DNA from: an uncultured Acidobacteriota bacterium
GTDB lineage: Bacteria > Acidobacteriota > Terriglobia > Acidiferrales > UBA7541
Length of the DNA stretch: 64,000 nucleotides
Direction of reading: 5' to 3'
Assembly (NCBI GenBank): GCA_963781995.1
Contig: CAWAHR010000001.1
Location: forward strand, 761,744-825,743
The position numbers and the translations under genes are program-made. Shown piece by piece: positions 3,951 to 15,970 of the stretch (positions are counted from its first letter, which is position 1; every line of letters begins with the position of its first letter). Below the pieces are notes generated by a model that saw only the letters and a list, made by a program, of their open reading frames with translations, had not been told where the DNA came from and did no database searches.

Positions 3951-4142
3951 GCGGATATCCTCACCGGGAGCGGCGCACAATCCGCCGCATTCACTAACAC
4001 TTTACACCAAAGCAGGAACCCGTGGAAATGGAGCGGTACTCCGCCGGCCCGGCTGCCAAGAGCCACGGCGGCCCGGCAAAAGTGCGCAAGGGACTGAAGG
4101 GAAAGGAAATAGCCGCCAGTGGACGTGTTACGGACTAACCTC

Positions 4143-4171
4143 TTGACAATAGTCGTTATAACATATATTAT
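4143..4171 (+). promoter_or_regulatory. Sigma70 promoter of the pirin gene with a palindromic site in the spacer
   Basis: TTGACA (4143-4148), 17 nt spacer, TATTAT (4166-4171); GTTATAAC palindrome at 4155-4162. Confidence 0.75.
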
Positions 4172-4197
4172 CACCCTGCAAGTCAAGGAGGCAGGCC

Positions 4198-4896
4198 ATG
4201 ATTCTCATCCGTAAAAGCGACGACCGCGGGCACGCTAACCACGGCTGGTTGGATTCCCGCTTCACCTTTTCCTTTGCGGAGTACTTCGACCCGCAGCACC
4301 TCGAGTTCCGCACCCTGCGCGTGATGAACGACGATCGCATCGCCGGCGGCGGCGGTTTTCCCACTCACCCGCATCGCGATATGGAAATCGTCACCTACGT
4401 GCTCGACGGCGCCCTGGCCCATGAAGACAGCATGGGCAACGGCTCGGTTATCAAGCCGGGCGACGTGCAGTACATGAGCGCGGGCACCGGCGTGGCGCAC
4501 AGCGAATTCAATGCGTCCGATAAGATTCCAGTGCACATGTACCAGATCTGGATGTACCCGGACAAACAAGGGCACAAGCCAGCGTACGACCAGAAGCATT
4601 TCGACGCAGCGGAGAAGCGCGGAAAGCTGCGGCTGGTGGCTTCGCCCGACGGCAGGGAGGGCTCCGTGAAGATTCGCCAGGACAACGAACTCTACGCCAC
4701 GGTGCTGGCTCCCGGAGAAACGGTGAAGCATGCGTTGCAACCGGAGCGCCATGCCTACGTGCAGGTCGCTCGCGGCAGCGTGACGCTCAACGGCAGCAAG
4801 CTCAGCACTGGCGACGGCGCGGCCATCTCGCAGGAAAAGGCCGTCGAACTAACCGGCGTCGAAGACGCCGAAGTCCTGCTCTTCGACCTCGCGTAA
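4198..4896 (+). CDS. Pirin family protein (YhhW-like)
   Basis: GFPTHPHRDMEIVTYVL and HEDSMGN motifs, MSAGTGVAHSEFN; GGAGG RBS upstream. Confidence 0.93.
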   Translation: MILIRKSDDRGHANHGWLDSRFTFSFAEYFDPQHLEFRTLRVMNDDRIAGGGGFPTHPHRDMEIVTYVLDGALAHEDSMGNGSVIKPGDVQYMSAGTGVAHSEFNASDKIPVHMYQIWMYPDKQGHKPAYDQKHFDAAEKRGKLRLVASPDGREGSVKIRQDNELYATVLAPGETVKHALQPERHAYVQVARGSVTLNGSKLSTGDGAAISQEKAVELTGVEDAEVLLFDLA

Positions 4897-4948
4897 GGAA
4901 AGCGTCGCGATAACTCGCCGGACTGCGGGCTCTAAACAACAATCAGTA

Positions 4949-4984
4949 ACAGAAGAAGGTGGAAGCGATTCCGCCTTCTTCTGC
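4949..4984. terminator. Bidirectional intrinsic terminator between convergent genes
   Basis: cagaagaaggtggaa-gcga-ttccgccttcttctg hairpin (one G-T pair). Confidence 0.7.
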
Positions 4985-5025
4985 TTTGCTGCTTCATGAA
5001 ACTTTTAGCGCTTGTTCTTCGTCTT

Positions 5026-5065
5026 CCGCTAACCGCTAACCGCTAACCGCTAACCGCTAACCGCT
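5026..5065 (+). repeat. Tandem heptamer (CCGCTAA)5 plus CCGCT
   Basis: Read directly: ccgctaa x5 then ccgct. Confidence 0.95.
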
Positions 5066-5079
5066 TGCCGCGGTCCTTC

Positions 5080-5631
5080 CTACGCTGTTTTCGGTTTGGA
5101 AAACGTGGGAATGGAAGCGACCACGCCGAGGACGATCGCCACGCCGAGCGCAATCAGCGCTGACGCAAAGCCCTCCGGCTTGACGGTCATCAAATAAACG
5201 ATGCCCAGCGCCAGCAACACCCGCACGCGGATGAGCGTGGGCAACGCCGGCGCGTGCAAAAGATCGGTGGCATTCACCGGGAGGGCGCCGTTGCCTTCGG
5301 GCAGGGCGGCGCGGAGGGCCCGGACGTGCGGCAGGATGAGCAAGAAGCCGATGCCAAGCGCGAGAACAATCGCCAGCGTCGAAACCAACAGCCAGCCTTG
5401 CTTCATTCCGCCGGAAAGTTCGGCCAGGTAGCCTCCGCTGAGGATCAGGAGCAGCAGGCCCGGGCCAGAAATGGGCAGCGACGTCTGGTAGACCCGCAGC
5501 CACGCGCGCACCTGCTCGGTGGTGGTGGCGCGACGCAGGAGAGACGAAACGATCCACTCCAGGCCGTAGCCGACAAAGAGCGCCACCAGTCCCACGAAAT
5601 GAAAGAACAGCGCCAGCGTGTAGTTGCTCAT
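5080..5631 (-). CDS. Multi-pass membrane protein (DUF2269-like)
   Basis: Four to five hydrophobic segments, N-terminal LFFHFVG, C-terminal YLMTVKP. Confidence 0.65.
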   Translation of the reverse strand: MSNYTLALFFHFVGLVALFVGYGLEWIVSSLLRRATTTEQVRAWLRVYQTSLPISGPGLLLLILSGGYLAELSGGMKQGWLLVSTLAIVLALGIGFLLILPHVRALRAALPEGNGALPVNATDLLHAPALPTLIRVRVLLALGIVYLMTVKPEGFASALIALGVAIVLGVVASIPTFSKPKTA

Positions 5632-5655
5632 AAGCAGTTCAGTGTACCGGACTCC

Positions 5656-6819
5656 TCATCCCCGCGCGCGGTGAAACTCCTTCATGAAATGGGTGAGCGC
5701 TTCGACGGCGTCCAAACCCACCGCGTTGTATAGCGAGATGCGCATGCCTCCCACCGAGCGGTGCCCCGGCGTACCGACCAGATTCGCGGCGGCCGCCTGT
5801 TTGGCGAAGTCTTTTTCCAAATTTTCGTCACCGATTTGGCTGGAGCTGCCACCTACGCGAAACACCACATTCATCAGCGACCGCGAAGCCTGCTCCACCG
5901 GGCAGGTGTAAAAACCACCGCTCGCTTCGATCGTGTCGTACAGCAGCTTGGCTTTTGCTTCGTTGCGCTTCTGGATTCCGGCCAGGCCGCCTTCGCTGGC
6001 GATCCATTCGGTGACCAGGCCCAGCGTATAAACCGCGAACGTTGGCGGCGTGTGGTATAGCGACTTTTCCTTGATGTGGGTGCGGTATTGCAGCACCGTG
6101 GGCAAATTCTTGTCGGCGCGTTCGGCCAGGTCCTTGCGCACGATCACCAGCGTGACCCCGCTGGGCCCTAGATTTTTCTGCGCTCCGGCGAAAATCAGCC
6201 CGAATTTGGAAACATCCATCGGGCGCGAAGCAATGTCCGAAGACATGTCCGCCACCAGTGGCGCGGCGGAGGCGGGCAGCGCGTGATACTGCGTGCCCTC
6301 AATGGTATTGTTGGTGCAGAAATAGGTGTACGAAGCGTCGGGGGAAAGCTTGATCTCTTCGGCGCGCGGCACCCGCGTGAATTTGGCGGCTTCGGTGGAC
6401 GCGGCAATGTTGTGCCCCGTGAGATTCGGAATGCCGCCCTTTTTCAATTCGGAGATGGCCTTCGCGGTCCAAGCGCCGGTGTGCAGCACGTCCACCGGCT
6501 TTCCAGGCAGCGCCAGGTTCATCGGCACCATGGTGAACTGCATGCTGCCGCCCCCCTGCACGAAAATCACCGCATAGTCGTCGGGAATCGCCAGCAGCTT
6601 GCGCAGATTCTGCTCGGCGGCGTTGTTGATGGCTTCAAACTCCGGCGAGCGGTGCGAAAGTTCCATCACGGACATCCCCGTGCCGCGGTAATCCAGCAGC
6701 TCTTCGCGGATGCGCTCCAGCACGGAAAGCGGCAAGGCAGCGGGTCCGGCATTGAAATTGAAAGCGCGCTTGGCAGTGGTGTTTGGAGCCAAAGGGACGT
6801 TTCTGACAGAAGTGCTCAC
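5656..6819 (-). CDS. serC: Phosphoserine aminotransferase
   Basis: FNFNAGPAALP, ELSHRSPEF, QGGGSMQF, GAQKNLGPSG (PLP lysine), GHRSVGGMRISLYNA. Confidence 0.95.
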   Translation of the reverse strand: MSTSVRNVPLAPNTTAKRAFNFNAGPAALPLSVLERIREELLDYRGTGMSVMELSHRSPEFEAINNAAEQNLRKLLAIPDDYAVIFVQGGGSMQFTMVPMNLALPGKPVDVLHTGAWTAKAISELKKGGIPNLTGHNIAASTEAAKFTRVPRAEEIKLSPDASYTYFCTNNTIEGTQYHALPASAAPLVADMSSDIASRPMDVSKFGLIFAGAQKNLGPSGVTLVIVRKDLAERADKNLPTVLQYRTHIKEKSLYHTPPTFAVYTLGLVTEWIASEGGLAGIQKRNEAKAKLLYDTIEASGGFYTCPVEQASRSLMNVVFRVGGSSSQIGDENLEKDFAKQAAAANLVGTPGHRSVGGMRISLYNAVGLDAVEALTHFMKEFHRARG

Positions 6820-6929
6820 GATGGAAAACCTTTCGATGCGAAATTTGCGGCGCGCCCGGAGCGGATGACCAAGGAGTGGACCGCTCCATAGAATAGCAGA
6901 AGAGGTGGGTGCTGATTGGTGACTGGTGG

Positions 6930-7510
6930 GGCAGGCACTCTTGCCTGTGTTCTTGTAGCGGCCCCCGATCGGGCCGGGGGTGAATTTGGCTTGTGTAGTG
7001 GCCGAACTTTAGATCGGCGACCGCGGCCTTGAATTGGTCGGACCATAGGGGGTACCCCCGGGTTTTTGCGAAAGAGTGCGCAACGAATAGACAGGGCGGG
7101 AGATAACTGTGATCCAAAAAATGAAAGAGTGCGCAAGTTCCTGAAAACACAGAGAGGCGGAAGGGAAGAATTCGTGGGAAGAGCGAGGTTTTGCAAAATG
7201 CCGGCGCGCCGACATTTCAAGTAAGACTTGAAGGTTGAAGGAAGCGAGACCCCCCACCCCACGGGTATCGCGTGTGTGCGGGAATAATTGGAGTTACAGG
7301 AGGATGGCTCGTAGGTCTGGGAATGAATGAACTTAGTGGAGTGGGCCAACGGGAGGGAGGAGTTGGAGAAGAGCCCTTCGGCAAGCTCAGGGTGGATATC
7401 CTTCGTCGGATATCCGCTGCGGACGGACTCAGGCCCAAGTGTCACACCCTATTATAACACAGGAGTAGTAACGTTGGCACTAGTTAATTAACTGGTACTG
7501 TGTTCGAATG
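6930..7510 (+). repeat. Composite intergenic repeat cluster, left arm of the island
   Basis: GTAG-tagged palindrome gtagtggccgaactttagatcggc (6995-7018); twice-repeated gaaagagtgcgcaa block; cccacccc...gggaataattggagttac module (~7251-7300); 70 bp core at 7441-7510. Related modules occur inverted at 11730-12155. Confidence 0.7.
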
Positions 7511-7632
7511 GCTGGGCGTTTGAAGGGCGGCATGGGACGAAGGCAGTGATCAGCGATCAGGAAACGAGGAAAATCAAGACCCACCCTTACACATCAAGGG
7601 CGGGGCACCCGCAACTCTGCAACTCCAAGGAT

Positions 7633-8100
7633 TCAGGCGGTGGCGGTCCGATAGTTCTGTGGTGAGAGGGCCCAGAAAAGATCCGCCGCCGACGTAAATC
7701 GCAAGATACCGATGGCCCGGTAAAATGCGTCCCAGGTATCACATTTGACCGAGATGAGGAATTTTCCCTCCACCACGCGGTTGTCGGCCCAATCAGCCGG
7801 AACTCCCATGTCTCTTAGAGCGGTGGGTAAGGCGCCCTGACGCGGTTCATTGCCCATGTCCAGAAACCCGCCCGTTCCGTCCAGCGGGAGGTTTGCGGCC
7901 GGACCCGCATCGATTCCGGCGGGAACTTGCATTTTTTTCCGGTGGGCGAATTCTCTTGTGTCTTCATTCTTTGGGTGAAGGACAAAGATGCGGTTGATTG
8001 GGAAGCCATTGCCGGCCAGGGCGTCGAAGGCTTTCTCGACCAACGCTACTGTGTCGTAGATACCGAAGACTGTATTTACATCCGTCGTTATGTAAGTCAT
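7633..8100 (-). CDS. Hypothetical protein resembling general-stress/heat-induced proteins
   Basis: N-terminus MTYITTDVNTVFGIYDTVALVEKAFDAL resembles that family; start set at ATG 8100 because the ORF extension to 8388 runs through heptamer repeats. Confidence 0.55.
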   Translation of the reverse strand: MTYITTDVNTVFGIYDTVALVEKAFDALAGNGFPINRIFVLHPKNEDTREFAHRKKMQVPAGIDAGPAANLPLDGTGGFLDMGNEPRQGALPTALRDMGVPADWADNRVVEGKFLISVKCDTWDAFYRAIGILRFTSAADLFWALSPQNYRTATA

Positions 8101-8697
8101 TTTGAAAACCCAGCCATCCAGGAGCCTTGAGTCTAGGAGGCGGCCTGCAAGGCGTCTATCCCCTTTCGTACACTGCAAAGTTTCAAATTTGGGCGCGTTG
8201 CTTGCTTGCCGTGAGTCCGTCCGAAGGGTCACGCCGGATTGCCGGTCATCCGGGGCACCCGCCGAAATTTGCGGTGCGTCCGGAGCGGGGAAACTGTGGA
8301 GTGGACCGCTCCCTAGAATAACAGAAGAGATGATTGGTGATTGGTGACGGGCGGCCAAAGATTGGTGGCTCGCCACTATGGTTACCAAAAGAATACTGCT
8401 TCCTATGTTACGTCGAAGCGGTAATTGTCCTTGCTAAGTGAGAGGTACTGGTATATTTGAGTTACGCTATCAGCGTACTAAGTACTGCGCCCGGTAGCCG
8501 GAGCTTTCGTGAAACCGCACCGCCTATCGGCGACCAATCGGCTAGTTCATCCCGGCATGAGAACTTTTGCGTTTTTGCCTGTGAGTTCGTGTGAATATCG
8601 GCGAATCTCCACAGTTTTTCCAAACAGTTTTCCTCTCTCAAAAAATGCTTCGTTGCGACCAGTTAAATGGCCGATTAGCATGCCTTATCGAACCGTT

Positions 8698-9570
8698 ATG
8701 GCCAGAAAAACCAAGAATTTGGGGCAAATCGTGCTTTTTCCGGGGGCTCCGGGGGAGGCAAAGGGTGACTCTGCTGAGCTAGTTTCCGGAGCCCTCGTGA
8801 ATAGCGCTGCAACAGCACCAGCTTTTCACTCAATTGAACCTGTTTCCGAACCTGCAGGATACCAGGTGGTGCTGTCAGGCTCCTACAGGAAGGATTTTGA
8901 GTCCCTTAAGGCGACCTACGAAGAATTGCGCGATCTCGGGTGCCAAGTCTTGTCCCCCAGTAACGTAACGGCTGTCCGCGAGACGGACGGCTTTGTATTC
9001 ATGAAAGGCGAAGAACGTGAATTGCCTGATGCTATCGAGGCGCGCCATCTTGAGGCAATTCAGAAGGCAAATTTTGTTTGGTTGCATGCCCCACAGGGCT
9101 ATGTTGGACCGACCGCATCATTGGAGATCGGTTTTGCGCGGGCCGTGGGTGTTCCGGTCTTTGCGAGGGAGCAAGTCAAAGATCCGGTTATTCATTCTTT
9201 CGTGGAAGTTTTGTCTTCGCCTGCTGTTGCCATCGACGCGATTAAGAGCCAAGGTTTTCCTATCCCAAAGCCTGCCCTCGCTGCTTTCCAGAACTATTAT
9301 CGCCGCGTTGCACTGCAGAGAGGCTACAAGTCCGAAAGCCCCAAAGATTGTCTCTTGTTGATGGTCGAAGAGGTCGGTGAGCTTGCTAGGGAAATTCGCA
9401 GGCAGGAGCGTTTAGTACGGCACGGTCCATCTTCTCAATCAAGCGAGAGCCGAGAGCTCGCTGACATATTTCTATATGTGGTTCACATGGCAAATGTGTT
9501 GGACGTAGATTTGTCAAAGATCGTCCAAGAGAAGGAGCTAGTCAATCTACAGAGATTCTTGCGAGGATAA
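8698..9570 (+). CDS. Fusion of a nucleoside 2-deoxyribosyltransferase-like domain and a MazG-like NTP pyrophosphohydrolase
   Basis: N domain: VVLSGSYRKD...HLEAIQKANFVWLHAPQGYVGPTASLEIGFARAVGVPVF (NDT-like, candidate catalytic Glu). C domain: LMVEEVGELA...ELADIFLY (EExxE...ExxD MazG metal motif). Start at ATG 8698 is uncertain; the ORF opens at 8509. Confidence 0.8.
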   Translation: MARKTKNLGQIVLFPGAPGEAKGDSAELVSGALVNSAATAPAFHSIEPVSEPAGYQVVLSGSYRKDFESLKATYEELRDLGCQVLSPSNVTAVRETDGFVFMKGEERELPDAIEARHLEAIQKANFVWLHAPQGYVGPTASLEIGFARAVGVPVFAREQVKDPVIHSFVEVLSSPAVAIDAIKSQGFPIPKPALAAFQNYYRRVALQRGYKSESPKDCLLLMVEEVGELAREIRRQERLVRHGPSSQSSESRELADIFLYVVHMANVLDVDLSKIVQEKELVNLQRFLRG

Positions 9571-9586
9571 GACGCCGCGATCAAAT

Positions 9587-11716
9587 ATGTTCGAGCAATT
9601 CGTCGAATGCCGTCACCGTCTTCAGGAATTCTGCAAGCTTCATTATCCGAGCTTGGAATATTTTAGCGGCGGACTAAGCTTTGCCATCTATAGAAGCGAA
9701 ATCGATTCCAAGAATTTTGGCCCCGAGGACGTTAAACACCTAACTTCCAGCGCAACCTGCTACGGCTCTTTGCAAGGATGCCCAGACCGACTTCGTCCTG
9801 GTGACGCCAGAGACATTACTTTCGAATCCCGACGCTACGCGATCGCCGCCTTAAACAGAGACCCTGCCAAATGGACCTCCGACGGTTCGGCTCCAATCTA
9901 CTGCCGCTGCCGGACGCTACCTTTTGTTGTTCATAACATCCCGGAGTGGAATGCAATCATAGAGACCCACATCGAGACCATCCTTAAACAAATGGACGAA
10001 CCCGGAAGGTTCGCTATCGGTGAGGCAGACCCACTAGACAAGCCCAATAAGTGGTATCGCCCCAACGCGTACCACACTTACTGGGCACTCGAGTTGATAA
10101 ACTCAGTTCGTGTAAAGAACCCGCGACAATATGAGAAACTTGAAGCTAGATTGGAGGTGGGCAGGCGCGTCGCGCAGATGGAGGACTGGGCGCGTGCGGC
10201 TTTGGGCTATCAAGTCTCACTACACTCAGCTGGCTCGACACTGCTCGACTCTGACCAACTCGCTTGGGCTCTGGCAATCCTCACGCGGTCACCACAGACT
10301 TTTCGCTCAAATCCAGCGGAGCAAGACTTTATCAGACACGCCTACAAGTGTCTCTTCGGAACGCAACAGAAAAACGGAAGCTGGCAGCACTATGCTCCAC
10401 TCTTTCATTATGTTGATACCGGAAATGCATATTGCTATATATTTGAAAGTTTTGCGTCGTTACTCAAGCACGCACTTGCGACGGGTGCTGAATTCATTCG
10501 CACAGTACTCAAAGACAATTTCTCGGACTTAGTTGAGCTTTGGGAATACGCGCAGTCGATTCAAGTTGTCATACCGGGGAAGAACAAGGCTCTAGCATGG
10601 TCATCCGGCCACAGGACAAATAACGCAGATGTGGAAAGCTGGGCAACAGCCAGCGTATTCGCTTACGCGCAGTCTCTCCGTCGTTTAGTGGGCATTTGGA
10701 CTCGCGAAGAAGCTCTCGCTAATTTGCCAAGGCGAACCTACTTTACCTCAGTGGCATCCGCTTCCAAAGCTCTCGAGGAGAGAACCCGAACCTGGACTTC
10801 CGATAATGAACTGACCGACAAACTAAAAAGCCTGTTTATCACCCCGGCGGTAGATAAGAGCCCGTACGATCTCCTCGAACCGGACAATCTCCCAATCGAT
10901 GAAAATTCTGCACGCTCAGCAATCCTGTTCGGCCCACCCGGAGCAAGCAAGACCACAATTGTCAGGGCCTTGGCCGGGGCTATCGGTTGGGATTACGTTG
11001 AATTACACGCTAGTCACTTCGTTGCAAACGGCCTGCCAAACGTTCAAAGCAAGGCAGACGAGATCTTCGCCTACCTAATGGAGCTTGATCATGCAATCGT
11101 CCTGTTCGACGAAATCGACGAATTGGTTCGAGAAAGAGAGGACGAACCGGATGCCTTTGGCCGATTTCTCACAACTAGTATGCTGCCGAAGCTGGCGGAA
11201 CTGTGGAAGAGCCGCAAAATCATGTACTTCATTGCATCGAATCACATTGGCTACTTTGATCGAGCCATCATACGAAGCGAACGATTCGATGCTGTAATCT
11301 TCGTCAGCCCACCCTCCTTTGAGGCGAAACGGGAGGAGCTGCTAAAGCTCTTTCTCGAGAGGCACGGAAAGACAGTGAGCTTCGATGTTCCAAAAACCAT
11401 TATCGACCGGGCCATGCCTAAGTTTAAATCCAATGCAGATCCGAAAACTCTGGCAAAGAAAGCGTTGTCACCTGCCCATGCTCTGGCAAAATTTGTCCTG
11501 TTACGCTGGGATGAATTAGCAGAACTCGCCTACTACCTAAACATCTCCATCCCTGAAGGCGGCAAAATTGAGAAAGAAGATCTCAAGGGCGCCTTACAGT
11601 TGCTTCGCGACGGCCGATGGAGAACACAACGGGAATATTTTGAATATGTGCGGGGGCCCGCTTACGAACGCAGAGACTTTGGAAAGACACGCAAGTGGGA
11701 CGTCAGCAATCCCTGA
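9587..11716 (+). CDS. AAA+ ATPase with a large N-terminal helical domain resembling a prenyltransferase/squalene-cyclase alpha-toroid
   Basis: Walker A GPPGASKTT, Walker B IVLFDEIDELV, SRH IASNH..FDRAIIRSERFD. N-terminal region has TQQKNGSW (QW-repeat-like). Confidence 0.8.
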   Translation: MFEQFVECRHRLQEFCKLHYPSLEYFSGGLSFAIYRSEIDSKNFGPEDVKHLTSSATCYGSLQGCPDRLRPGDARDITFESRRYAIAALNRDPAKWTSDGSAPIYCRCRTLPFVVHNIPEWNAIIETHIETILKQMDEPGRFAIGEADPLDKPNKWYRPNAYHTYWALELINSVRVKNPRQYEKLEARLEVGRRVAQMEDWARAALGYQVSLHSAGSTLLDSDQLAWALAILTRSPQTFRSNPAEQDFIRHAYKCLFGTQQKNGSWQHYAPLFHYVDTGNAYCYIFESFASLLKHALATGAEFIRTVLKDNFSDLVELWEYAQSIQVVIPGKNKALAWSSGHRTNNADVESWATASVFAYAQSLRRLVGIWTREEALANLPRRTYFTSVASASKALEERTRTWTSDNELTDKLKSLFITPAVDKSPYDLLEPDNLPIDENSARSAILFGPPGASKTTIVRALAGAIGWDYVELHASHFVANGLPNVQSKADEIFAYLMELDHAIVLFDEIDELVREREDEPDAFGRFLTTSMLPKLAELWKSRKIMYFIASNHIGYFDRAIIRSERFDAVIFVSPPSFEAKREELLKLFLERHGKTVSFDVPKTIIDRAMPKFKSNADPKTLAKKALSPAHALAKFVLLRWDELAELAYYLNISIPEGGKIEKEDLKGALQLLRDGRWRTQREYFEYVRGPAYERRDFGKTRKWDVSNP

Positions 11717-11729
11717 ATGTCGTTGGCGG

Positions 11730-12189
11730 CATTCGAATAATATACCTACAAATTAATTATTAACTAAGTTACTATTCTTGTGCTATCAAGGATTGTGACA
11801 GTTGGGCGCCAGGCTGTCCGGACCCCACCGGGAACCGTTTCTCCCGCCTCCACCCTTCCGCACATTCGCAAGAATCCAGCTAAGTCCCATGTTTCCGCCA
11901 CTTCAAAACTGATAGAAGCCAAACGACTTCAAGTCCATTCTTTCGATCACTTACAAAAAACAGGGGGGAGGGGGAGATACCACTTGGTACACCCCGCGCA
12001 TCTTCCTGTCCGCAGTGCGCCTCATTTAAATCCAATGATTCCCACACCTGCGATCCGTTCTCCCGTAACCCCAATCATTCCCACACCTACGATCCCCCCG
12101 GGTGGGGGGGTATACCTAGATTTTGCGGATGCCGACCTGAAGGTCGGCCACTACAACGGCAAGAGGGCACGGTTTACCGTGCCCCTACA
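11730..12189 (-). repeat. Composite intergenic repeat cluster, right arm of the island
   Basis: 70 bp core at 11730-11799 is an inverted copy of 7441-7510. Duplicated ccaat[gc]attcccacacct[ga]cgatcc unit at ~12033-12086. GTAG palindromes at 12131-12154 and 12165-12189. Confidence 0.7.
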
Positions 12190-12225
12190 GATAGAGGAGA
12201 CGAAGCGGGCGGCACCAGGCGGCGG

Positions 12226-12396
12226 CTACTTGAGCATTACTTCGCGGGCGAGCCTGCTCATGACCACTTCGCGAAGATCGTTGCGTTTCCTGCCGGCATC
12301 GATCATGGCGTCTCGCGAGCCGTAATGCTTAGCGGCGATGGTTGTTGCTTTGGCGTCGAGGCCGTCGATCGCGGCGTAGTTCGGATACAGGAATCC
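12226..12396 (-). pseudogene. Start-less 3' gene remnant (56 aa)
   Basis: Reads GFLYPNYAAIDGLDAKATTIAAKHYGSRDAMIDAGRKRNDLREVVMSRLAREVMLK* directly after an in-frame TAA at 12397-12399; protein-like composition, no start codon or RBS at its 5' edge. Confidence 0.5.
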
Positions 12397-12459
12397 TTAA
12401 GTCATTCGGGGTAGACTCCCAACTGCGCACTTTAGGCATGTAACGGGAGGAGACAGGTC

Positions 12460-13425
12460 ATGGATATTTTCAAGCAAGGGCGGGGAGAACATTCGGAGTT
12501 CACGCTGCGGCCGCAGATTCCGGGTTTGCGGAATATTGTGATTGGCGCGGTGGTGCTGTTGGTGGTGCTGTTCGTGTTGTCGTTTGCGGTGCGCGTGACG
12601 CGCATAGAAGCGGGCCACGTGGGCGTGGAGATCAACCTGGCGGGGAAGCAGCGCGGCGCTTCGGATATTCCGGTGCGCACGGGCTGGGTGCTGTACTCGC
12701 CGCTGACCACGCAGATCATCGAGTTCCCGACGTACGTGCAGACGGTGAAGTGGACCCGGGACACCAGCGAAGGGCACCCGATCAATGAGGAGATGGGATT
12801 CAATTCCAAGGAGGGGATGGAAATTTTTGTGGACGTTTCGCTTTCGTACGCAATTGATCCAATGAAGGCGCCGGAGTTTTACGTGAAATATCGCGTGGAC
12901 GATTTGGACCGCTTCACGCATGGAATTTTGCGGGACATCGTGCGGAACTCGCTGAACGAAGTGGCGTCGACGTATGTGGTGGAGGACATTTACGGTGAAG
13001 GGAAAGCAGAGTTTCTGCACAAGGTGGAGGCGATGATCGAATCGAAAGTGGCGCCGGTGGGCGTGGGCGTGCAGCAGTTCGGGTTCATTGGAGCGCCGCG
13101 CGTGCCGCAGGTGATCGCGACGGCGATCACGGCCAAGGCGCAAGCGATCCAGCAGGCGGAGCGGGCGCGGAATGAGTTGGCAACGACGCAGGCGGAGGCG
13201 GCGAAGAAGATTGCCGAGGCCGAGGGAGACGCGAAGTCGATGGTGACGCGGGCGCAGGGCGAAGCGGATGCCAACCGGATCCGGCAGAATTCACTGACGC
13301 CGCAATTGCTGGATTTGCGGCGGATTGAGAATTCGCGGGCGCTGATTGACAAGTGGAATGGGCAGTTGCCGACGGTGGAGTCGGGGCAAGGCGGCGGGAT
13401 GATTTTGCAGTTGCCGAAGCCGTAG
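12460..13425 (+). CDS. SPFH/Band 7/prohibitin family protein
   Basis: N-terminal TM, RIEAGHVGVEINL, SPFH core, AQ-rich coiled coil; GGAG RBS. Confidence 0.9.
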   Translation: MDIFKQGRGEHSEFTLRPQIPGLRNIVIGAVVLLVVLFVLSFAVRVTRIEAGHVGVEINLAGKQRGASDIPVRTGWVLYSPLTTQIIEFPTYVQTVKWTRDTSEGHPINEEMGFNSKEGMEIFVDVSLSYAIDPMKAPEFYVKYRVDDLDRFTHGILRDIVRNSLNEVASTYVVEDIYGEGKAEFLHKVEAMIESKVAPVGVGVQQFGFIGAPRVPQVIATAITAKAQAIQQAERARNELATTQAEAAKKIAEAEGDAKSMVTRAQGEADANRIRQNSLTPQLLDLRRIENSRALIDKWNGQLPTVESGQGGGMILQLPKP

Positions 13426-13450
13426 AAGTGAGTGCCGAGTGGCCGGTGGA

Positions 13451-15970
13451 TCAGGAGGAGGCGAGAGCGAATTCGACGCGGCGGCGGATGGGGTCGATGC
13501 GTTCGGCGCGCACGCGGATGCGGTCGCCGAGTTTCCAGGTGAGTTGCAGCGTGGATTTGCGGCGGCCCGGGCGGCGGCCACGGCCGGAATCGCCGCCGGT
13601 TACGGCGACGATGGCGTGGTCGCGCTCGCGATAGACGCAGCGGGCGTCGGCGGCTTCCTCGATGGCGGTGATGGGCAGAAGACCTTCGACGAAAACTTCA
13701 AAGAGCTCGACGAAGCAGCCGTATTTCTGGACGGAGATGATCAGGGCTTCGTATTCGTCGCCGAGATGCTGCTCCATGAACTGCGCGGTTTTCCAACTGA
13801 CGAGTTCGCGCTCGGCGCCGGCGGCGCGGCGCTCGGTTTCGGAAGCTTCCGCGGCGATTTCCTCAAGATGCTTTAAAGAATAGATGGCGGCTTCGGTGCC
13901 AAGCGCGGGCTTGATGTGCGTCGGCGCGGGGGCCTCGGGGTGCGCGAGCGCCCATTTGAGGACTCGATGGACGATCAAGTCGGGATAGCGACGAATCGGC
14001 GAAGTAAAGTGGGTGTATTCCTCGAAACCGAGAGCGAAGTGGCCGAGAGTTTCGGCGGAGTAGCGAGCCTGCTTGAGCGAACGCAGCATGAGGTAGGAAA
14101 GAATGCGCTCCTCGGGTTTGCCGGAGAGCTTTTGCACCAGGCGCTGGTAGTGCTGCGGGGTGAGATTGATGTCCGATGCGGGAAGAACGGCGCGCATCTG
14201 GCGCTCGCGGCCGTGGCCGCGGGTTTCGGGGCGCCCTCCTTTAGCGGGTGAGGGAACTTTGCCGTGGCGGACGGCAACCTCGCGTTGGTGGAGATTTTCT
14301 ACGCCAAGTGAGTAGCCGAAGGCGCGGGCGAGTTCCTCGAATTCGAGGACTTTGCGGGCGTCGGGCATTTCGTGAACGCGATGCAGCGCGTGCAAGCCAC
14401 GCTGAATGAGGTACCGTGCAACGGCGCGATTCGCGGCGAGCATGAATTCCTCAATCAGGCGATGGGCGATGTTGCGTTCGCTGCGGCCGATGTTGGTCAT
14501 TTGCTGCTGGTCGTCGAATTCGATGACCGGTTCGGGAAGATCGAAATCGATGGAGCCGTTTTCGGCGCGACGGGCGTTCAGGAGAAGAGCGAGTCCCTTC
14601 ATGGCGCGGAAGTGGTGGCTCAGATGGGCGTAGCGCTCGGACATTTCGGCGTCGCCTTCGAGAACCTTGTTGACGTTGGTGTAGGTCATGCGCTCGGCGG
14701 AGCGGATGATGCCGGAAGTCATCCAAGAGTTGAGCATGCGGCCGGAGGAATCGAAGTCCATGATCGCGCTGAGGACCAGGCGCTCTTCGCGTGGTTTGAG
14801 GGAGCACATGCCGTTGGAGAGAGCTTCGGGAAGCATGGGAACGGCGCGATCGAGGAAGTAGACGGAATTGCCGCGGAGGCGGGCTTCACGATCGAGCGGG
14901 GATTCGGGCGTGACGTAGTGAGCGACGTCGGCGATGTGCACTTGCAGGAGCCAACCGCCGTCCTCGCGGCGCTCGACGTAGACCGCGTCATCGAAGTCGC
15001 GGGCGGTTTCGCCGTCGATGGTGACGATGGGGAGGCTGCGAAAATCCTCGCGGCCGGGTAGATCGGATTCGGAAACGGGGCGGGCAAGCTGTTCGGCTTC
15101 GTGGGAAACTTCCGGCGGGAAGGTGTGTGGGAGATGGTGCTTGCGGATGATGATCTCGGTATCCACGCCGAGATCGCCGGGGCGGCCGAGAATTTCGATG
15201 ACCCGGCCGACCGGAGCGGCGCCTTCGCGGGCATAACGGACGAGCTCGGCATTGACGACGGCGCCATCGAGTCTCGGGATGTGCGGGAGACGGATGGGTT
15301 TGCCGGCGCGGTCTTTTTCGCCAGGGAAGAATTGTTCGCGCAGAGCGGGAGAAAGTTCATCGCCGGCGGGAAGCTCGATTTCGTGTTGGACGCGAGGATC
15401 GTAAGGAACGACGACGCAGCCGCGGGAAGTGTAGCGGAACAGGCCGACGACGGCGGGGTGGGCGCGGGCAACGACGCGAAGGATGCGGCCTTCGGCGCGG
15501 CGGGCGCCGGGCATGCCACTGAGGCGGGAGATTTTGGCGACGACGTGATCGCCGTGCATGGCGTCTTCGACGTAATCGCGCGGGATGAAGAGGTCTCCAT
15601 CGAGATTCGGGATGGCCACGTCAGGAACCACAAAGCCATAGCCATCCTGGTGCAGGACCAGGCGGCCTCTGATTTCGTCGCGGGAAAACGTTTTGTGCTG
15701 GGGGAATTTTTCGGCGGGCAGTTCGGCGGGTGGCCAGGGCCTTGTGGTGGGCTGTTGCGGGCGGAGAGTCTGACGAAGGAGGAAGCGGCCGTGGGAAAGT
15801 TCTTCGACCAGGCCGCGCTTTTTGAGCTTGGCGAGCATCTGGAGCAGGGCGCGACGGCTGGATTTTTTGACCTGGAGGGAGCGTGAAAGGTCTTCAAGGG
15901 ACACGGCGCTATTCCTAAGTTGCAGAAAACGAAGGATGTTATCAGGACTTAGGTGCGACGGCCGAGACAT
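13451..15970 (-). CDS. rnr: Ribonuclease R
   Basis: N-terminal HTH, cold-shock domains (HQDGYGFV), RNB motifs TIDGETARDFDDAV and HFTSPIRRYPDL, C-terminal S1. Confidence 0.93.
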   Translation of the reverse strand: MSRPSHLSPDNILRFLQLRNSAVSLEDLSRSLQVKKSSRRALLQMLAKLKKRGLVEELSHGRFLLRQTLRPQQPTTRPWPPAELPAEKFPQHKTFSRDEIRGRLVLHQDGYGFVVPDVAIPNLDGDLFIPRDYVEDAMHGDHVVAKISRLSGMPGARRAEGRILRVVARAHPAVVGLFRYTSRGCVVVPYDPRVQHEIELPAGDELSPALREQFFPGEKDRAGKPIRLPHIPRLDGAVVNAELVRYAREGAAPVGRVIEILGRPGDLGVDTEIIIRKHHLPHTFPPEVSHEAEQLARPVSESDLPGREDFRSLPIVTIDGETARDFDDAVYVERREDGGWLLQVHIADVAHYVTPESPLDREARLRGNSVYFLDRAVPMLPEALSNGMCSLKPREERLVLSAIMDFDSSGRMLNSWMTSGIIRSAERMTYTNVNKVLEGDAEMSERYAHLSHHFRAMKGLALLLNARRAENGSIDFDLPEPVIEFDDQQQMTNIGRSERNIAHRLIEEFMLAANRAVARYLIQRGLHALHRVHEMPDARKVLEFEELARAFGYSLGVENLHQREVAVRHGKVPSPAKGGRPETRGHGRERQMRAVLPASDINLTPQHYQRLVQKLSGKPEERILSYLMLRSLKQARYSAETLGHFALGFEEYTHFTSPIRRYPDLIVHRVLKWALAHPEAPAPTHIKPALGTEAAIYSLKHLEEIAAEASETERRAAGAERELVSWKTAQFMEQHLGDEYEALIISVQKYGCFVELFEVFVEGLLPITAIEEAADARCVYRERDHAIVAVTGGDSGRGRRPGRRKSTLQLTWKLGDRIRVRAERIDPIRRRVEFALASS

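What the first reader, a model, noticed from the sequence alone, without database searches (positions are those of the whole stretch)
8698..11716. Candidate undescribed nucleotide-targeting defence/conflict module: NDT-MazG fusion plus alpha-toroid-AAA ATPase
Seen: two same-strand genes 16 nt apart on DNA that is clearly lower in GC than the flanks (two hand-counted 60-nt lines gave 47-48%, a third 63%; lines in gltA and rnr gave 68-80%). They sit between two repeat clusters and interrupt a housekeeping backbone (serC ... SPFH, rnr). Established: NDT-fold enzymes cleave N-glycosidic bonds of nucleotides, MazG enzymes hydrolyse NTPs, and many anti-phage systems pair an ATPase sensor with a nucleotide-destroying effector on horizontally acquired islands. 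Inference: the ATPase senses or controls, and the fusion depletes or sanitises (modified) nucleotides or a nucleotide signal. I do not recognise this pairing as a named system.
Basis: partly seen in the sequence, partly recalled or inferred. Interest (0 to 1): 0.78.

Follow-up and report, generated by a model that had tools for sequence, protein, structure and literature searches.

The report
Mobile NDT-MazG plus AAA ATPase module
Two foreign-looking neighbouring genes, a two-step nucleotide-destroying enzyme and an unusual AAA ATPase, form a rare horizontally moving gene pair that stays together across four bacterial phyla and often sits beside known anti-phage systems, so it is a good candidate for an undescribed phage-defence system, though nobody has tested it.

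Summary
Gene A (8698-9570) fuses a DNPH1/NDT-fold domain to a MazG pyrophosphatase. Gene B (9587-11716), 16 nt downstream, is a classic-clade AAA ATPase with a 435-residue all-helical N-domain that matches no known family.

- **Composition:** the pair has 51% GC against 58.3% for the genome (lowest 0.3% of windows).
- **Distribution:** no full-length B was found in 64 other same-genus genomes, and B's N-domain was found in none of 400 other genomes of the phylum.
- **Linkage:** B is preceded by an NDT-like gene in 66 of 68 metagenomic loci. The pair also occurs in Actinomycetes, Chloroflexota and Verrucomicrobiae MAGs.
- **Subtypes:** 41 loci have NDT-MazG then B, 15 of them with a small P-loop kinase-like gene upstream. 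The other 25 have NDT-only, then B, then an HhH-GPD-like protein, often with a second NDT. The constant core is NDT plus B; MazG is optional.
- **Neighbours:** these include short pAgo/SPARTA, another pAgo, Shedu, Hhe, integrases and conjugation genes.
- **Prior description:** PADLOC 2.0 has no model for A, and I found no paper describing the pair.

Most likely (about 0.55) it is an ATPase-controlled system that degrades nucleotides (dNTP to dNMP to free base). This is unproven. The "alpha-toroid" fold could not be tested. The scan has noted an NDT-MazG fusion before on other DNA, but not this pair.

The parts
8698..9570 (+). Gene A: NDT-like/MazG fusion protein (290 aa)
   Evidence: ORF and translation; start supported by alignment A1; 415 homologues.
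8698..8853 (+). A residues 1-52: predicted disordered tail with a conserved N-terminal motif (M..Q-I-x-L-F-P) and a variable linker
   Evidence: pLDDT below 50. M1, Q10, F14 and P15 are invariant in 30 sequences. The motif is also present in the Bryobacteraceae and Verrucomicrobiae copies and absent in the Actinomycetes and Chloroflexota copies.
8863..9252 (+). A residues 56-185: NDT/DNPH1-fold domain with an invariant Glu in S-L-E-I-G (E143, nt 9124-9126)
   Evidence: Foldseek PDB top hits are RCL/DNPH1, NDT and BcmB; BFVD top hits are phage NDTs. PF05014 matches below threshold in 14 of 16 members. The Glu, the GYVG motif and the SG[ST][YF][RH] motif are conserved in both subtypes.
9271..9564 (+). 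A residues 192-289: MazG-type all-alpha NTP pyrophosphohydrolase domain (EEVGE...ELAD metal-binding motifs)
   Evidence: Pfam MazG 2.6e-6, above cut-off. A profile search of PDB finds 2q73 and DCTPP1/RS21-C6 at 6e-9 to 8e-7. E224, E225, E228, E253 and D256 are invariant.
9587..11716 (+). Gene B: AAA ATPase with a long N-terminal helical domain (709 aa)
   Evidence: ORF; more than 500 homologues; AF2 pLDDT 88, pTM 0.86.
9587..10891 (+). B residues 1-435: all-helical N-domain of an unnamed family, with many invariant His/Cys/Trp/Glu/Asn residues and one QW-like motif (QQKNGSW)
   Evidence: No Pfam or PDB sequence match. 627 clusters at 50% identity among 1.84 billion proteins; in full-length members (about 750-850 aa) the domain lies at the N-terminus. 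hhalign against this genome's squalene-hopene cyclase finds only a 26-residue QW-like match, probability 3%.
10904..11713 (+). B residues 440-709: classic-clade AAA module plus C-terminal helical region. Walker A is GPPGASKT (Ser in place of the last Gly), Walker B is LFDEIDE, a pore-loop-like HFVANGL is present, and the SRH reads RAIIRSERFD
   Evidence: PF00004 6.5e-20. Foldseek top hits are Drg1/AFG2, proteasome Rpt subunits, VCP, spastin and Msp1. Invariant columns are listed.
7433..7510 (.). Left inverted arm: a promoter-like AT-rich module facing left
   Evidence: Local alignment with the right arm scores 66, against 19 +/- 3.8 for shuffles. A minus-strand sigma70-like match, GTGCCA-18-TATAAT, lies at 7480-7451. 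The arm is conserved at 75% in sister genome G063, which lacks A and B.
11730..11807 (.). Right inverted arm, starting 14 nt after the stop of B; a degenerate inverted copy of the left arm
   Evidence: No counterpart in G063. A third weak copy on contig C2 carries TTGACA-N18-TATGAT.
7633..8100 (-). 155-aa ORF of unknown function inside the variable segment; not part of the conserved module
   Evidence: No Pfam, PADLOC, NCBIfam or PHROG hit when scanned as the 251-aa ORF 7633-8388 that contains it, and no Pfam hit as the 155-aa ORF. Only 35-43% partial paralogues in the genus. No hit beside A/B in 80 metagenomic loci.
8263..8354 (.). Copy of a 92-nt repeat also found at 6839-6929
   Evidence: 81.5% identity.
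11879..11992 (.). Dispersed repeat of about 110 nt, with at least 5 other copies in this genome
   Evidence: 81-90% identity on C1, C2 and C3.

Best explanation
A and B form the core of a horizontally mobile, self-contained conflict (probably anti-phage) module that acts on deoxynucleotides.

Gene A is a two-step nucleotide destroyer. Its C-terminal MazG domain cuts (d)NTP to (d)NMP plus pyrophosphate. Its N-terminal DNPH1/NDT-like domain then breaks the N-glycosidic bond of the monophosphate, releasing the free base and (deoxy)ribose 5-phosphate, so the nucleotide cannot simply be re-phosphorylated.

Gene B is a hexameric, substrate-threading AAA ATPase of the Cdc48/Rpt/spastin type. Its large conserved helical N-domain would recognise a trigger, either a phage protein or a nucleotide or base ligand. 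ATP hydrolysis would then switch A on or off, possibly by engaging the conserved terminal peptide of A. The outcome would be either collapse of the dNTP pool or selective removal of non-canonical (phage-type) nucleotides, which blocks phage DNA synthesis.

Shown here: domain identities, intact catalytic motifs, strict gene linkage, mobility and defence-island context. Inferred: substrate, direction of control by B, the trigger, and phage protection itself.
For: **Enzyme logic**
- MazG is above Pfam's cut-off with invariant EExxE/ExxD motifs, and is nearest to DCTPP1 by profile.
- The NDT fold is nearest to DNPH1/RCL and the CMP N-glycosidase BcmB. The Glu at the nucleophile position and an SG[ST][YF][RH] motif are conserved in both subtypes.
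- A phage fusion with the same domain order (NDT-like then dNTP diphosphatase) has been shown in vitro to convert dATP to dAMP to adenine (PMC12884076).

**Linkage**
- An NDT-like gene lies immediately upstream of B in 66 of 68 metagenomic loci.
- The same holds in all 5 genome loci carrying the full-length fusion, from an uncultured Acidobacteriota MAG, a Bryobacteraceae MAG, and Actinomycetes, Chloroflexota and Verrucomicrobiae MAGs.
- Identities of A and B fall together across loci.

**Accessory and mobile character**
- No full-length B was found in 64 other same-genus genomes or 24 wider relatives (DNA search). B's N-domain was found in none of 400 other phylum genomes.
- GC z = -3.3.
- In sister genomes the same serC-SPFH gap holds a Gp49/HigB-like gene and a DUF3800 gene, or IS110 copies.
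- One copy of B is split by an IS. Serine recombinases and IS3 elements lie beside others.

**Defence context**
- In Acidobacterium capsulatum the pair lies on an integrase/ArdC element directly upstream of a TIR-APAZ plus short pAgo (SPARTA-type) pair (2e-175 and 1e-207).
- Among 48 immediate neighbours from 27 loci there are strong PADLOC hits to pAgo, PDC-S37, Hhe and SduA, plus HipA, TrwB/TrwC and a restriction endonuclease (REase) family, MTES_1575.

**ATPase competence**
- Walker B, sensor, SRH arginines and a pore-loop-like motif are invariant, and the fold is classic-clade AAA.

**Wider family**
- Distant B-like ATPases also sit with nucleotide enzymes. On a Burkholderia conjugative plasmid the neighbour is DUF4406. 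In Parabacteroides the order is ThyX, B-like, HIT, PRA-PH, DHFR.
Against: - There are no functional data of any kind.
- The defence-neighbour enrichment has no matched control, and many neighbours are housekeeping genes.
- Several copies, including this one, sit alone among housekeeping genes.
- The pair was not found on viral contigs or in PADLOC, which is neutral evidence.
- The Parabacteroides relative lies with ThyX and DHFR, which could mean the wider ATPase family regulates ordinary nucleotide metabolism.
- NDT-family enzymes can be transferases rather than hydrolases (DmtZ does both), so A might make a nucleotide rather than destroy one.
- Walker A has Ser in place of the canonical last Gly in this clade.
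- The NDT assignment is below threshold by sequence, and residue-level equivalence of the catalytic Glu rests on motif position, not on a structural superposition.
Confidence: 0.55

Rival explanations
1. Biosynthetic or base-exchange module. A works like the phage enzyme DmtZ, as a phosphodeoxyribosyltransferase: MazG supplies dNMP and the NDT-like domain swaps its base for another. The kinase-like genes re-phosphorylate the product. The result is a non-canonical or toxic nucleotide used for self DNA modification, as a signal, or as a chain terminator.
For: - DmtZ, an NDT-family enzyme fused to a dNTP diphosphatase, both hydrolyses dAMP and transfers dR5P to another base.
- Recurrent nucleotide-kinase-like genes lie upstream: an AAA_18-type gene in 15 of 41 fusion loci and a thymidylate-kinase-like gene in 3 loci.
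- In type 2, an HhH-GPD glycosylase-like gene and a second NDT accompany the core.
- Thymidine kinase lies nearby in L102.
- The Parabacteroides relative lies with ThyX and DHFR.
Against: - The kinase is absent in most loci, including this window.
- No base-synthesis gene is conserved with the pair.
- No DNA polymerase or modification-dependent nuclease is linked to it.
- The closest structural matches are hydrolases (DNPH1, BcmB) as much as transferases.
Confidence: 0.15
2. Accessory nucleotide-pool sanitation. A removes damaged or non-canonical nucleotides (DCTPP1 plus DNPH1 logic) for the cell's own benefit, and B is a dedicated chaperone or regulator. There is no role in conflict.
For: - The nearest characterised relatives of both halves of A are house-cleaning enzymes.
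- Some copies lie among housekeeping genes.
- Earlier scan notes found similar nucleotide-cleaning genes to be ordinary in other genomes.
Against: - The module is very rare and patchy: it was found in none of 400 other phylum genomes and in none of the 64 other same-genus genomes searched.
- Its composition is foreign.
- It spreads across phyla and travels with integrases, conjugation genes and defence systems.
- A house-cleaning enzyme has no obvious need for a strictly linked 700-800 aa AAA ATPase.
Confidence: 0.12
3. Addiction (toxin-antitoxin-like) module of mobile elements. A is a toxic nucleotide-degrading enzyme and B keeps it in check. The pair stabilises the element rather than defending against phage.
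For: - The pair is strictly linked and mobile, and sits in hotspots that hold TA genes in sister genomes (Gp49/HigB-like) and HipA beside other copies.
- B copies disrupted by an IS exist.
Against: - At 709-840 aa, B would be an unusually large and ATP-costly antitoxin.
- In the IS-disrupted locus A remains an open frame, which argues against A being lethal without B. Whether it is still active is unknown.
- Many TA-like modules also act in defence, so this rival overlaps the main reading.
Confidence: 0.1

Closest known systems
DmtZ-DutZ (NDT-like domain fused to a Dut-like dNTP diphosphatase) of Z-genome phages such as Wayne (PMC12884076)
   Same: The domain order and chemistry are the same. 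An N-terminal DNPH1/NDT-fold domain is followed by a C-terminal dNTP-to-dNMP pyrophosphatase. Sequential dATP to dAMP to adenine conversion was shown in vitro.
   Different: Here the pyrophosphatase is MazG/DCTPP1-like. The gene is bacterial, was not found on viral contigs, and is strictly linked to a large AAA ATPase that the phage enzymes lack. Direct homology to DmtZ was not tested.
DNPH1/Rcl (dNMP N-hydrolase) and DCTPP1/RS21-C6 (all-alpha dNTP pyrophosphatase), the eukaryotic nucleotide-pool sanitisers
   Same: These are the best structural match for the N-domain and the best sequence-profile match for the C-domain. Fused together, their activities would give the proposed two-step reaction.
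   Different: Sequence identity is only 15-23% in the fold matches, and the Pfam NDT score is below cut-off. In eukaryotes the two are separate housekeeping enzymes. Here they are fused, mobile and coupled to an ATPase.
RADAR (RdrA ATPase plus RdrB adenosine deaminase); comparison from my own knowledge of the literature
   Same: The logic is the same: a large ATPase paired with an enzyme that chemically ruins a nucleotide pool, encoded as a two-gene mobile defence operon.
   Different: There is no sequence relationship; PADLOC gave no RdrA or RdrB hit. The ATPase clade, the N-domain and the effector chemistry (glycosidic-bond cleavage rather than deamination) all differ.
IetAS (Gao_Iet): IetA AAA ATPase plus IetS protease
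   Same: This is the best PADLOC hit for B (4.6e-14), and both are classic AAA cores in a two-gene system.
   Different: The match covers only the AAA core (residues 391-600). IetA is about 330-395 aa and lacks the 435-residue N-domain. No subtilase partner is present.
Enzymatic dNTP-depletion defences: dCTP deaminase and dGTPase (own knowledge), and the PUA-Cal-HAD filament (bioRxiv 10.64898/2026.01.15.699771)
   Same: The proposed outcome is the same: starving phage replication of deoxynucleotides.
   Different: The enzyme families differ. Those systems are single proteins or self-assembling filaments without an AAA partner.
Retron Ec86 (Retron-Eco1) NDT-like effector (bioRxiv 10.1101/2023.08.16.553469, listed)
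   Same: It shows that an NDT-fold protein can be the effector of an anti-phage system.
   Different: That effector is controlled by a reverse transcriptase and msDNA, not by an ATPase, and has no MazG domain.
APE system (alpha-alpha toroid, ParA, effector; bioRxiv 10.64898/2026.10.19.760177)
   Same: If B's N-domain is an alpha/alpha toroid, this would be another case of a toroid sensor coupled to an NTPase and a variable enzyme.
   Different: The toroid in APE is a separate protein related to the complement TED domain, and the NTPase is ParA. hhalign of B's N-domain against a TED-containing A2M protein found nothing.

Membership tests
Nucleoside 2-deoxyribosyltransferase / DNPH1 superfamily (PF05014) | Score above Pfam's gathering threshold | tested here: not met
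   16.3-18.3 bits against a 28.8 cut-off. 14 of 16 family members match weakly; best E 1.8e-4.
Nucleoside 2-deoxyribosyltransferase / DNPH1 superfamily (PF05014) | Flavodoxin-like alpha/beta fold shared with NDT, Rcl and BcmB | tested here: met
   The top 50 PDB Foldseek hits are almost all DNPH1/RCL, NDTs or BcmB (probability 0.99-1.00, TM-target 0.45-0.69; domain pLDDT about 85). Phage NDTs top the BFVD list.
Nucleoside 2-deoxyribosyltransferase / DNPH1 superfamily (PF05014) | Catalytic Glu nucleophile in an E-[LIV]-G motif after the central strand | tested here: inconclusive
   E143 in S-L-E-I-G-F-A is invariant in both subtypes. Its equivalence to the DNPH1/NDT nucleophile is judged from motif position, not from a residue-level superposition.
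Nucleoside 2-deoxyribosyltransferase / DNPH1 superfamily (PF05014) | N-glycosidase or transferase activity on (deoxy)nucleosides or nucleotides | not testable with these tools
   Needs an enzyme assay.
MazG / all-alpha NTP pyrophosphohydrolase (PF03819) | Score above Pfam's gathering threshold | tested here: met
   28.1 bits against 22. Profile hits to 2q73, DCTPP1/RS21-C6 and YpjD in PDB.
MazG / all-alpha NTP pyrophosphohydrolase (PF03819) | Metal-binding acidic motifs EExxE and ExxD | tested here: met
   E224, E225, E228, E253 and D256 are invariant in 30 sequences.
Classic-clade AAA ATPase (PF00004) | Pfam threshold; Walker B; second region of homology with arginines; pore-loop | tested here: met
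   72.3 bits. D508, E509, N552, R563 and R566 are invariant, as are F478 and V479 of a pore-loop-like motif. Fold matches are Drg1, Rpt, VCP, spastin and Msp1.
Classic-clade AAA ATPase (PF00004) | Canonical Walker A GxxxxGK[ST] | tested here: not met
   The window has GPPGASKT and the family consensus is GPPGTSKT (Ser replaces the last Gly); K455 and T456 are invariant. The distant Burkholderia relative has the canonical GPPGTGKT.
Alpha/alpha-toroid (terpene cyclase / prenyltransferase / LanC-like) domain | Closed barrel of paired helices, shown by fold comparison | tested here: inconclusive
   The model is all-helical (about 17 helices, pLDDT above 90 over most of residues 1-420). The whole-protein Foldseek list is filled by AAA hits, and no further model could be made. 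hhalign against the squalene-hopene cyclase finds only one QW-like 26-residue stretch. There are no Pfam or PDB sequence hits.
IetAS (PADLOC IetA) | Full-length match to IetA and an adjacent IetS subtilase | tested here: not met
   The match is limited to the AAA core, and there is no protease gene.
Any PADLOC 2.0 system or candidate | HMM hit to gene A or to the type-2 and accessory components | tested here: not met
   No hit for A, the A. capsulatum A, the NDT-only protein, the HhH-like protein, NDT130 or DUF4406. The kinase-like gene gives only marginal VakA and dCTPase hits.
Anti-phage defence system (generic) | Patchy accessory distribution, horizontal transfer, and location in defence islands or on mobile elements | tested here: met
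   The enrichment is not controlled statistically.
Anti-phage defence system (generic) | Protection against phage on expression | not testable with these tools
   Needs an experiment.

The most novel reading that the evidence does not exclude
The B-type ATPase defines a new, widely scattered class of immune or conflict machines. A ligand- or protein-sensing helical (possibly toroid) domain would gate a Cdc48-like unfoldase, which in turn controls interchangeable nucleotide-chemistry effectors: NDT-MazG, NDT plus HhH-GPD glycosylase, DUF4406, or ThyX/HIT/PRA-PH. The module would be aimed specifically at phages that use non-canonical bases. It would destroy their special dNTPs, and in type 2 excise their bases, while sparing the host pool.
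Probability: 0.2. Interest if true: 0.85.

Novelty: new variant of a known kind. Interest (0 to 1): 0.7.

Why it matters
Attacking the nucleotide pool is an established way for bacteria and animals to stop viruses. The known bacterial examples use deaminases, triphosphohydrolases or ATP nucleosidases.

A system that runs dNTP to dNMP to free base, gated by a Cdc48-type AAA machine carrying a new 435-residue sensor-like domain, would add a new effector chemistry and a new control principle. It would also give a function to an unnamed domain family of about 600 clusters.

The two subtypes and the distant plasmid relatives suggest a modular family in which one ATPase controls different nucleotide enzymes. 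The glycosylase and kinase accessories hint at specificity for modified-base phages, which can be tested directly with existing phage panels.

The same enzymes (an NDT-pyrophosphatase fusion, possibly with transferase activity) are also of interest for making nucleotide analogues enzymatically.

Tried and rejected
1. **Transposon reading of the arms.** The 78-nt inverted arms (7433-7510 and 11730-11807) are statistically real. However, the left arm and about 100 nt inside it are conserved in sister genome G063, which lacks A, B and the right arm. The arm also carries a sigma70-like promoter match, and a third copy elsewhere looks like a promoter. I therefore do not read them as transposon ends. 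Their role stays open.
2. **The 155-aa ORF (7633-8100) as a third component.** Rejected: no family hit, no co-occurrence in 80 loci, and only partial paralogues in the genus.
3. **ORF 11780-12325 as a gene.** It spans the right arm and dispersed repeats and has no family hit, so it is probably spurious.
4. **Naming B's N-domain by sequence.** This failed with Pfam on 6 members, a profile against PDB, and hhalign against a TED-containing A2M and against squalene-hopene cyclase.
5. **Linking DUF4406 of the Burkholderia operon to A's NDT domain by hhalign.** No signal. Its placement in the NDT clan is from memory only.
6. **Riboswitch or other known RNA in 6800-12500.** No Rfam match at E <= 1.
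7. **Viral origin.** No relative of B's N-domain in IMG/VR.
8. **Literature.** Seven searches found no description of the pair. The 2015 Burroughs et al. paper on nucleotide-centric systems is not held, so I could not check whether it mentions this neighbourhood.

Full report
**What is in the window**

Two + strand ORFs lie 16 nt apart: A at 8698-9570 (290 aa) and B at 9587-11716 (709 aa). A longer GTG-started frame from 8509 exists. However, 29 homologues align from the ATG at 8698 and share an N-terminal M-x8-Q-I-x-L-F-P motif, so 8698 is the start.

A+B have 51.2% GC, against a genome mean of 58.3% (sd 2.2 in 3-kb windows; z = -3.3; 0.3% of windows are as low). Their GC3 is 0.53-0.55, against 0.74-0.80 in the flanking genes.

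The flanks are a class-V aminotransferase (serC-like), an SPFH/Band 7 protein and RNase R. Both intergenic flanks are mosaics of short dispersed repeats that occur in many copies in this genome and genus.

**Gene A**

Pfam finds MazG above its cut-off at residues 214-277 and the NDT family below cut-off at residues 67-166.

The AF2 model built with 30 homologues is confident for residues 56-185 (pLDDT about 85) and moderate for the C-terminal four-helix part. Residues 1-52 are predicted disordered.

- The best PDB fold matches for the model are RCL/DNPH1 (dNMP N-hydrolase), bacterial NDTs and the CMP N-glycosidase BcmB.
- In the viral library the best matches are phage NDTs.
- A profile of the family finds the MazG-like protein 2q73 and DCTPP1/RS21-C6 in the PDB.
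- The MazG acidic motifs (EEVGE and ELAD) are invariant.
- In the NDT part, a Glu in S-L-E-[IV]-G, a GYVG motif and an N-terminal SG[ST][YF][RH] motif are conserved even in the most distant relatives.

So A is a DNPH1/NDT-fold domain fused to a DCTPP1-like pyrophosphatase. Sequence-level membership of PF05014 is not met, and I did not obtain a residue-level superposition.

A recently published phage enzyme has the same order of domains: NDT-like DmtZ fused to a Dut-like dNTP diphosphatase. In vitro it converts dATP to dAMP and then to adenine, and it can also transfer the deoxyribose phosphate to another base (PMC12884076). That is direct experimental precedent for the two-step chemistry proposed for A, and equally for the transferase rival.

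**Gene B**

The AF2 model is confident (pLDDT 88, pTM 0.86).

Residues from about 440 to 600 are a classic-clade AAA module. The best fold matches are Drg1/AFG2, proteasome Rpt subunits, VCP, spastin and Msp1. Walker B, the sensor Asn, the SRH arginines and a pore-loop-like H-F-V-A-x-G-L are invariant in 34 homologues. Walker A reads GPPG(A/T)SKT, with Ser where the last Gly normally stands. A distant Burkholderia relative has the canonical Gly.

Residues 1-435 are all-helical with many invariant His, Cys, Trp, Glu and Asn residues. They match nothing in Pfam or among PDB sequences. Against 1.84 billion representative proteins the domain finds only 627 clusters. In the full-length members, about 750-850 residues long, it lies at the N-terminus.

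The only hint is a single QW-like 26-residue match to this genome's squalene-hopene cyclase (probability 3%).

**Are the genes partners?**

Yes.

- In the species-representative genome collection, all five loci with a full-length fusion have B directly downstream. They come from an uncultured Acidobacteriota MAG, a Bryobacteraceae MAG, and Actinomycetes, Chloroflexota and Verrucomicrobiae MAGs. The Verrucomicrobiae copy has stops, probably from the long-read assembly.
- Starting from B's N-domain, 80 metagenomic loci were fetched. Of the 68 with at least 1 kb upstream, 66 have an NDT-like gene immediately before B.

Two subtypes appear:

- **Type 1 (41 loci):** the NDT-MazG fusion followed by B. 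In 15 of these an AAA_17/AAA_18 P-loop kinase-like gene of about 180 aa lies just upstream, as it also does in Acidobacterium capsulatum and two other contigs. Three loci carry a thymidylate-kinase-like gene instead.
- **Type 2 (25 loci):** an NDT-only protein of about 195 aa (32-40% identical to A's NDT domain), then B, then an HhH-GPD glycosylase-like protein, often a second small NDT, and often a divergent HTH regulator.

The constant core is therefore the NDT-like domain plus the B ATPase. MazG is an optional addition. Identities of A and B to the window copies decline together across loci, as expected for a unit inherited together.

**Is it accessory and mobile?**

- No full-length B was found in 36 same-genus and 24 wider relatives, nor by DNA search in 40 same-genus genomes.
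- B's N-domain profile found only the window's own genome among 401 genomes sampled across the phylum.
- In the closest relative (G063, 87% identical in serC), the same serC-SPFH gap is about 6 kb and holds other ORFs, among them a Gp49/HigB-like gene and a DUF3800 gene. In G023 the gap holds IS110 copies. The site is a variable hotspot.
- Elsewhere, one B copy is split by an IS. Serine recombinases and IS3 elements flank other copies. One copy is inserted between dnaA and dnaN.
- No relative was found on IMG/VR viral contigs.

**Defence context**

In A. capsulatum the order is: integrase, an AAA_13 ATPase, ArdC, the kinase-like gene, A, B, and then a TIR-APAZ protein and a short pAgo. PADLOC scores the last two at 2e-175 and 1e-207, which is a SPARTA-type system. 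A reverse transcriptase and NikA follow.

I scanned 48 immediate neighbours from 27 non-redundant metagenomic loci together.

- PADLOC gave strong hits to another pAgo (2.5e-134, directly upstream in L115), PDC-S37 (2e-296), Hhe (1e-144) and Shedu SduA (2e-62). Weaker hits included Mokosh, Ppl and pVip.
- Pfam gave HipA, TrwC, TrwB and the restriction endonuclease (REase) family MTES_1575.
- The rest were housekeeping genes such as a tRNA synthetase, GidB and GyrB.

This is clearly more defence and mobility content than ordinary neighbourhoods have, but I had no matched control, so it is suggestive rather than a statistic. Several copies, including the window's, are isolated insertions among housekeeping genes.

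**Is it already described?**

- PADLOC-DB 2.0 has no model matching A, the type-2 components or DUF4406. B matches IetA and TRIP13 only over the AAA core.
- NCBIfam and PHROGs give only generic names.
- Seven full-text searches found no description of the pair.
- The DefensePredictor paper lists MazG and a 'MazG-C' nucleotide kinase among predicted, unvalidated defence domains. It also validates systems containing a thymidylate synthase and a 5-hmdU kinase. Nucleotide-chemistry enzymes in defence are therefore an emerging theme, but this architecture is not reported there.
- The 2015 survey by Burroughs et al. could not be read.
- DefenseFinder could not be run.

**Wider family**

Distant B-like ATPases occur on plasmids (25-28% identity over part of the N-domain and the AAA core; hhalign probability 99.7% for the Burkholderia one).

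- In B. gladioli (conjugative plasmid) the gene is followed by DUF4406, a hypothetical protein and DUF6884.
- In Parabacteroides distasonis it sits between a long ThyX and HIT, a PRA-PH (MazG-superfamily) protein and DHFR.

So this ATPase family is repeatedly tied to nucleotide enzymes. The Parabacteroides case also warns that some members may regulate ordinary nucleotide metabolism.

**Most likely mechanism (confidence about 0.55)**

A destroys deoxynucleotides in two steps: MazG cuts dNTP to dNMP, and the NDT-like domain cuts dNMP to base plus dR5P. B is a threading AAA hexamer whose N-domain senses a trigger, and it uses ATP to switch A.

The conserved terminal peptide on a disordered linker in type-1 A proteins is a plausible handle for B, though this is inference. 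Type-2 proteins carry a C-terminal extension instead, which may play the same part. The kinase, glycosylase and second-NDT accessories suggest specificity for non-canonical bases.

Rivals are a DmtZ-like base-exchange or biosynthetic role (0.15), private pool sanitation (0.12), and a pure addiction module (0.10).

**The bracketing inverted arms**

These were noted earlier by the scan (e1-5281723). The arms at 7433-7510 and 11730-11807 align with a score of 66, against 19 +/- 3.8 for shuffles.

- The left arm contains a leftward sigma70-like promoter match.
- The left arm is conserved in G063 together with an adjacent terminator-like hairpin, while the right arm is not.
- A third weak copy on another contig carries TTGACA-N18-TATGAT.

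I read them as outward-facing promoter-like modules at the edges of a variable segment, not as proven transposon ends. This is unresolved.

**Limits**

- There is no fold test of B's N-domain alone.
- There is no complex prediction.
- The neighbour enrichment has no control.
- There is no experiment.

**Verdict**

This is a real, conserved, mobile two-gene core with two operon subtypes. It is a credible undescribed candidate for a nucleotide-targeting defence system. Its function is unproven.

Noticed in passing
window 7433-7510 and 11730-11807: A pair of 78-nt imperfect inverted arms brackets the variable segment. The left arm holds a leftward promoter-like site and is conserved in a sister genome that lacks the island. 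A third weak copy on contig C2 (L104, about 1500-1580) carries TTGACA-N18-TATGAT.
   Followed up: partly
window 6994-7024, 7191-7239, 12126-12159: Short REP-like palindromic units (25-45 nt) present in dozens of copies across all three contigs of the genome and in other species of the genus.
   Followed up: partly
window 11879-11992: A dispersed repeat of about 110 nt with at least five other copies at 81-90% identity in this genome, also present in the sister genome G063.
   Followed up: no
window 7633-8100 (-): A 155-aa ORF with its own terminator-like hairpin (7604-7580) and no family match. Only 35-43% partial paralogues exist elsewhere in the genus.
   Followed up: partly
L111 (G063:C254) 3200-9200: In the closest relative the same serC-SPFH gap carries other ORFs, among them a Gp49/HigB-like toxin gene and a DUF3800 gene. 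This marks the site as an integration hotspot.
   Followed up: partly
L011 (Acidobacterium capsulatum CP001472.1) 11477-14430: A TIR-APAZ plus short pAgo (SPARTA-type) pair lies directly downstream of the A/B pair, on an element with an integrase, ArdC, an AAA_13 ATPase and a reverse transcriptase.
   Followed up: partly
L195 (Parabacteroides distasonis NZ_OY725790.1) 3919-9205: An operon of a 539-aa ThyX with a 300-residue N-extension, a distant B-like AAA ATPase, a HIT/DcpS-like protein, a PRA-PH (MazG-superfamily) protein and DHFR.
   Followed up: partly
L196 (Burkholderia gladioli plasmid NC_015382.1) 5203-10301: On a conjugative plasmid, a distant B-like ATPase (841 aa) is followed by DUF4406, a 457-aa protein with no family, and DUF6884. 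DUF932 and LPD29 genes lie nearby.
   Followed up: partly
L095/L096 11034-14543: A B homologue is split by a DDE_Tnp_1 insertion sequence while the upstream A gene stays open.
   Followed up: no
L099 7309-14820: A type-2 module (NDT-only, B, HhH-GPD-like, NDT) is inserted between dnaA and dnaN.
   Followed up: no
L019 (Verrucomicrobiae MAG) 10001-12588: Both A and B homologues carry frame breaks or stops. This is probably long-read assembly error, but it could be decay.
   Followed up: no
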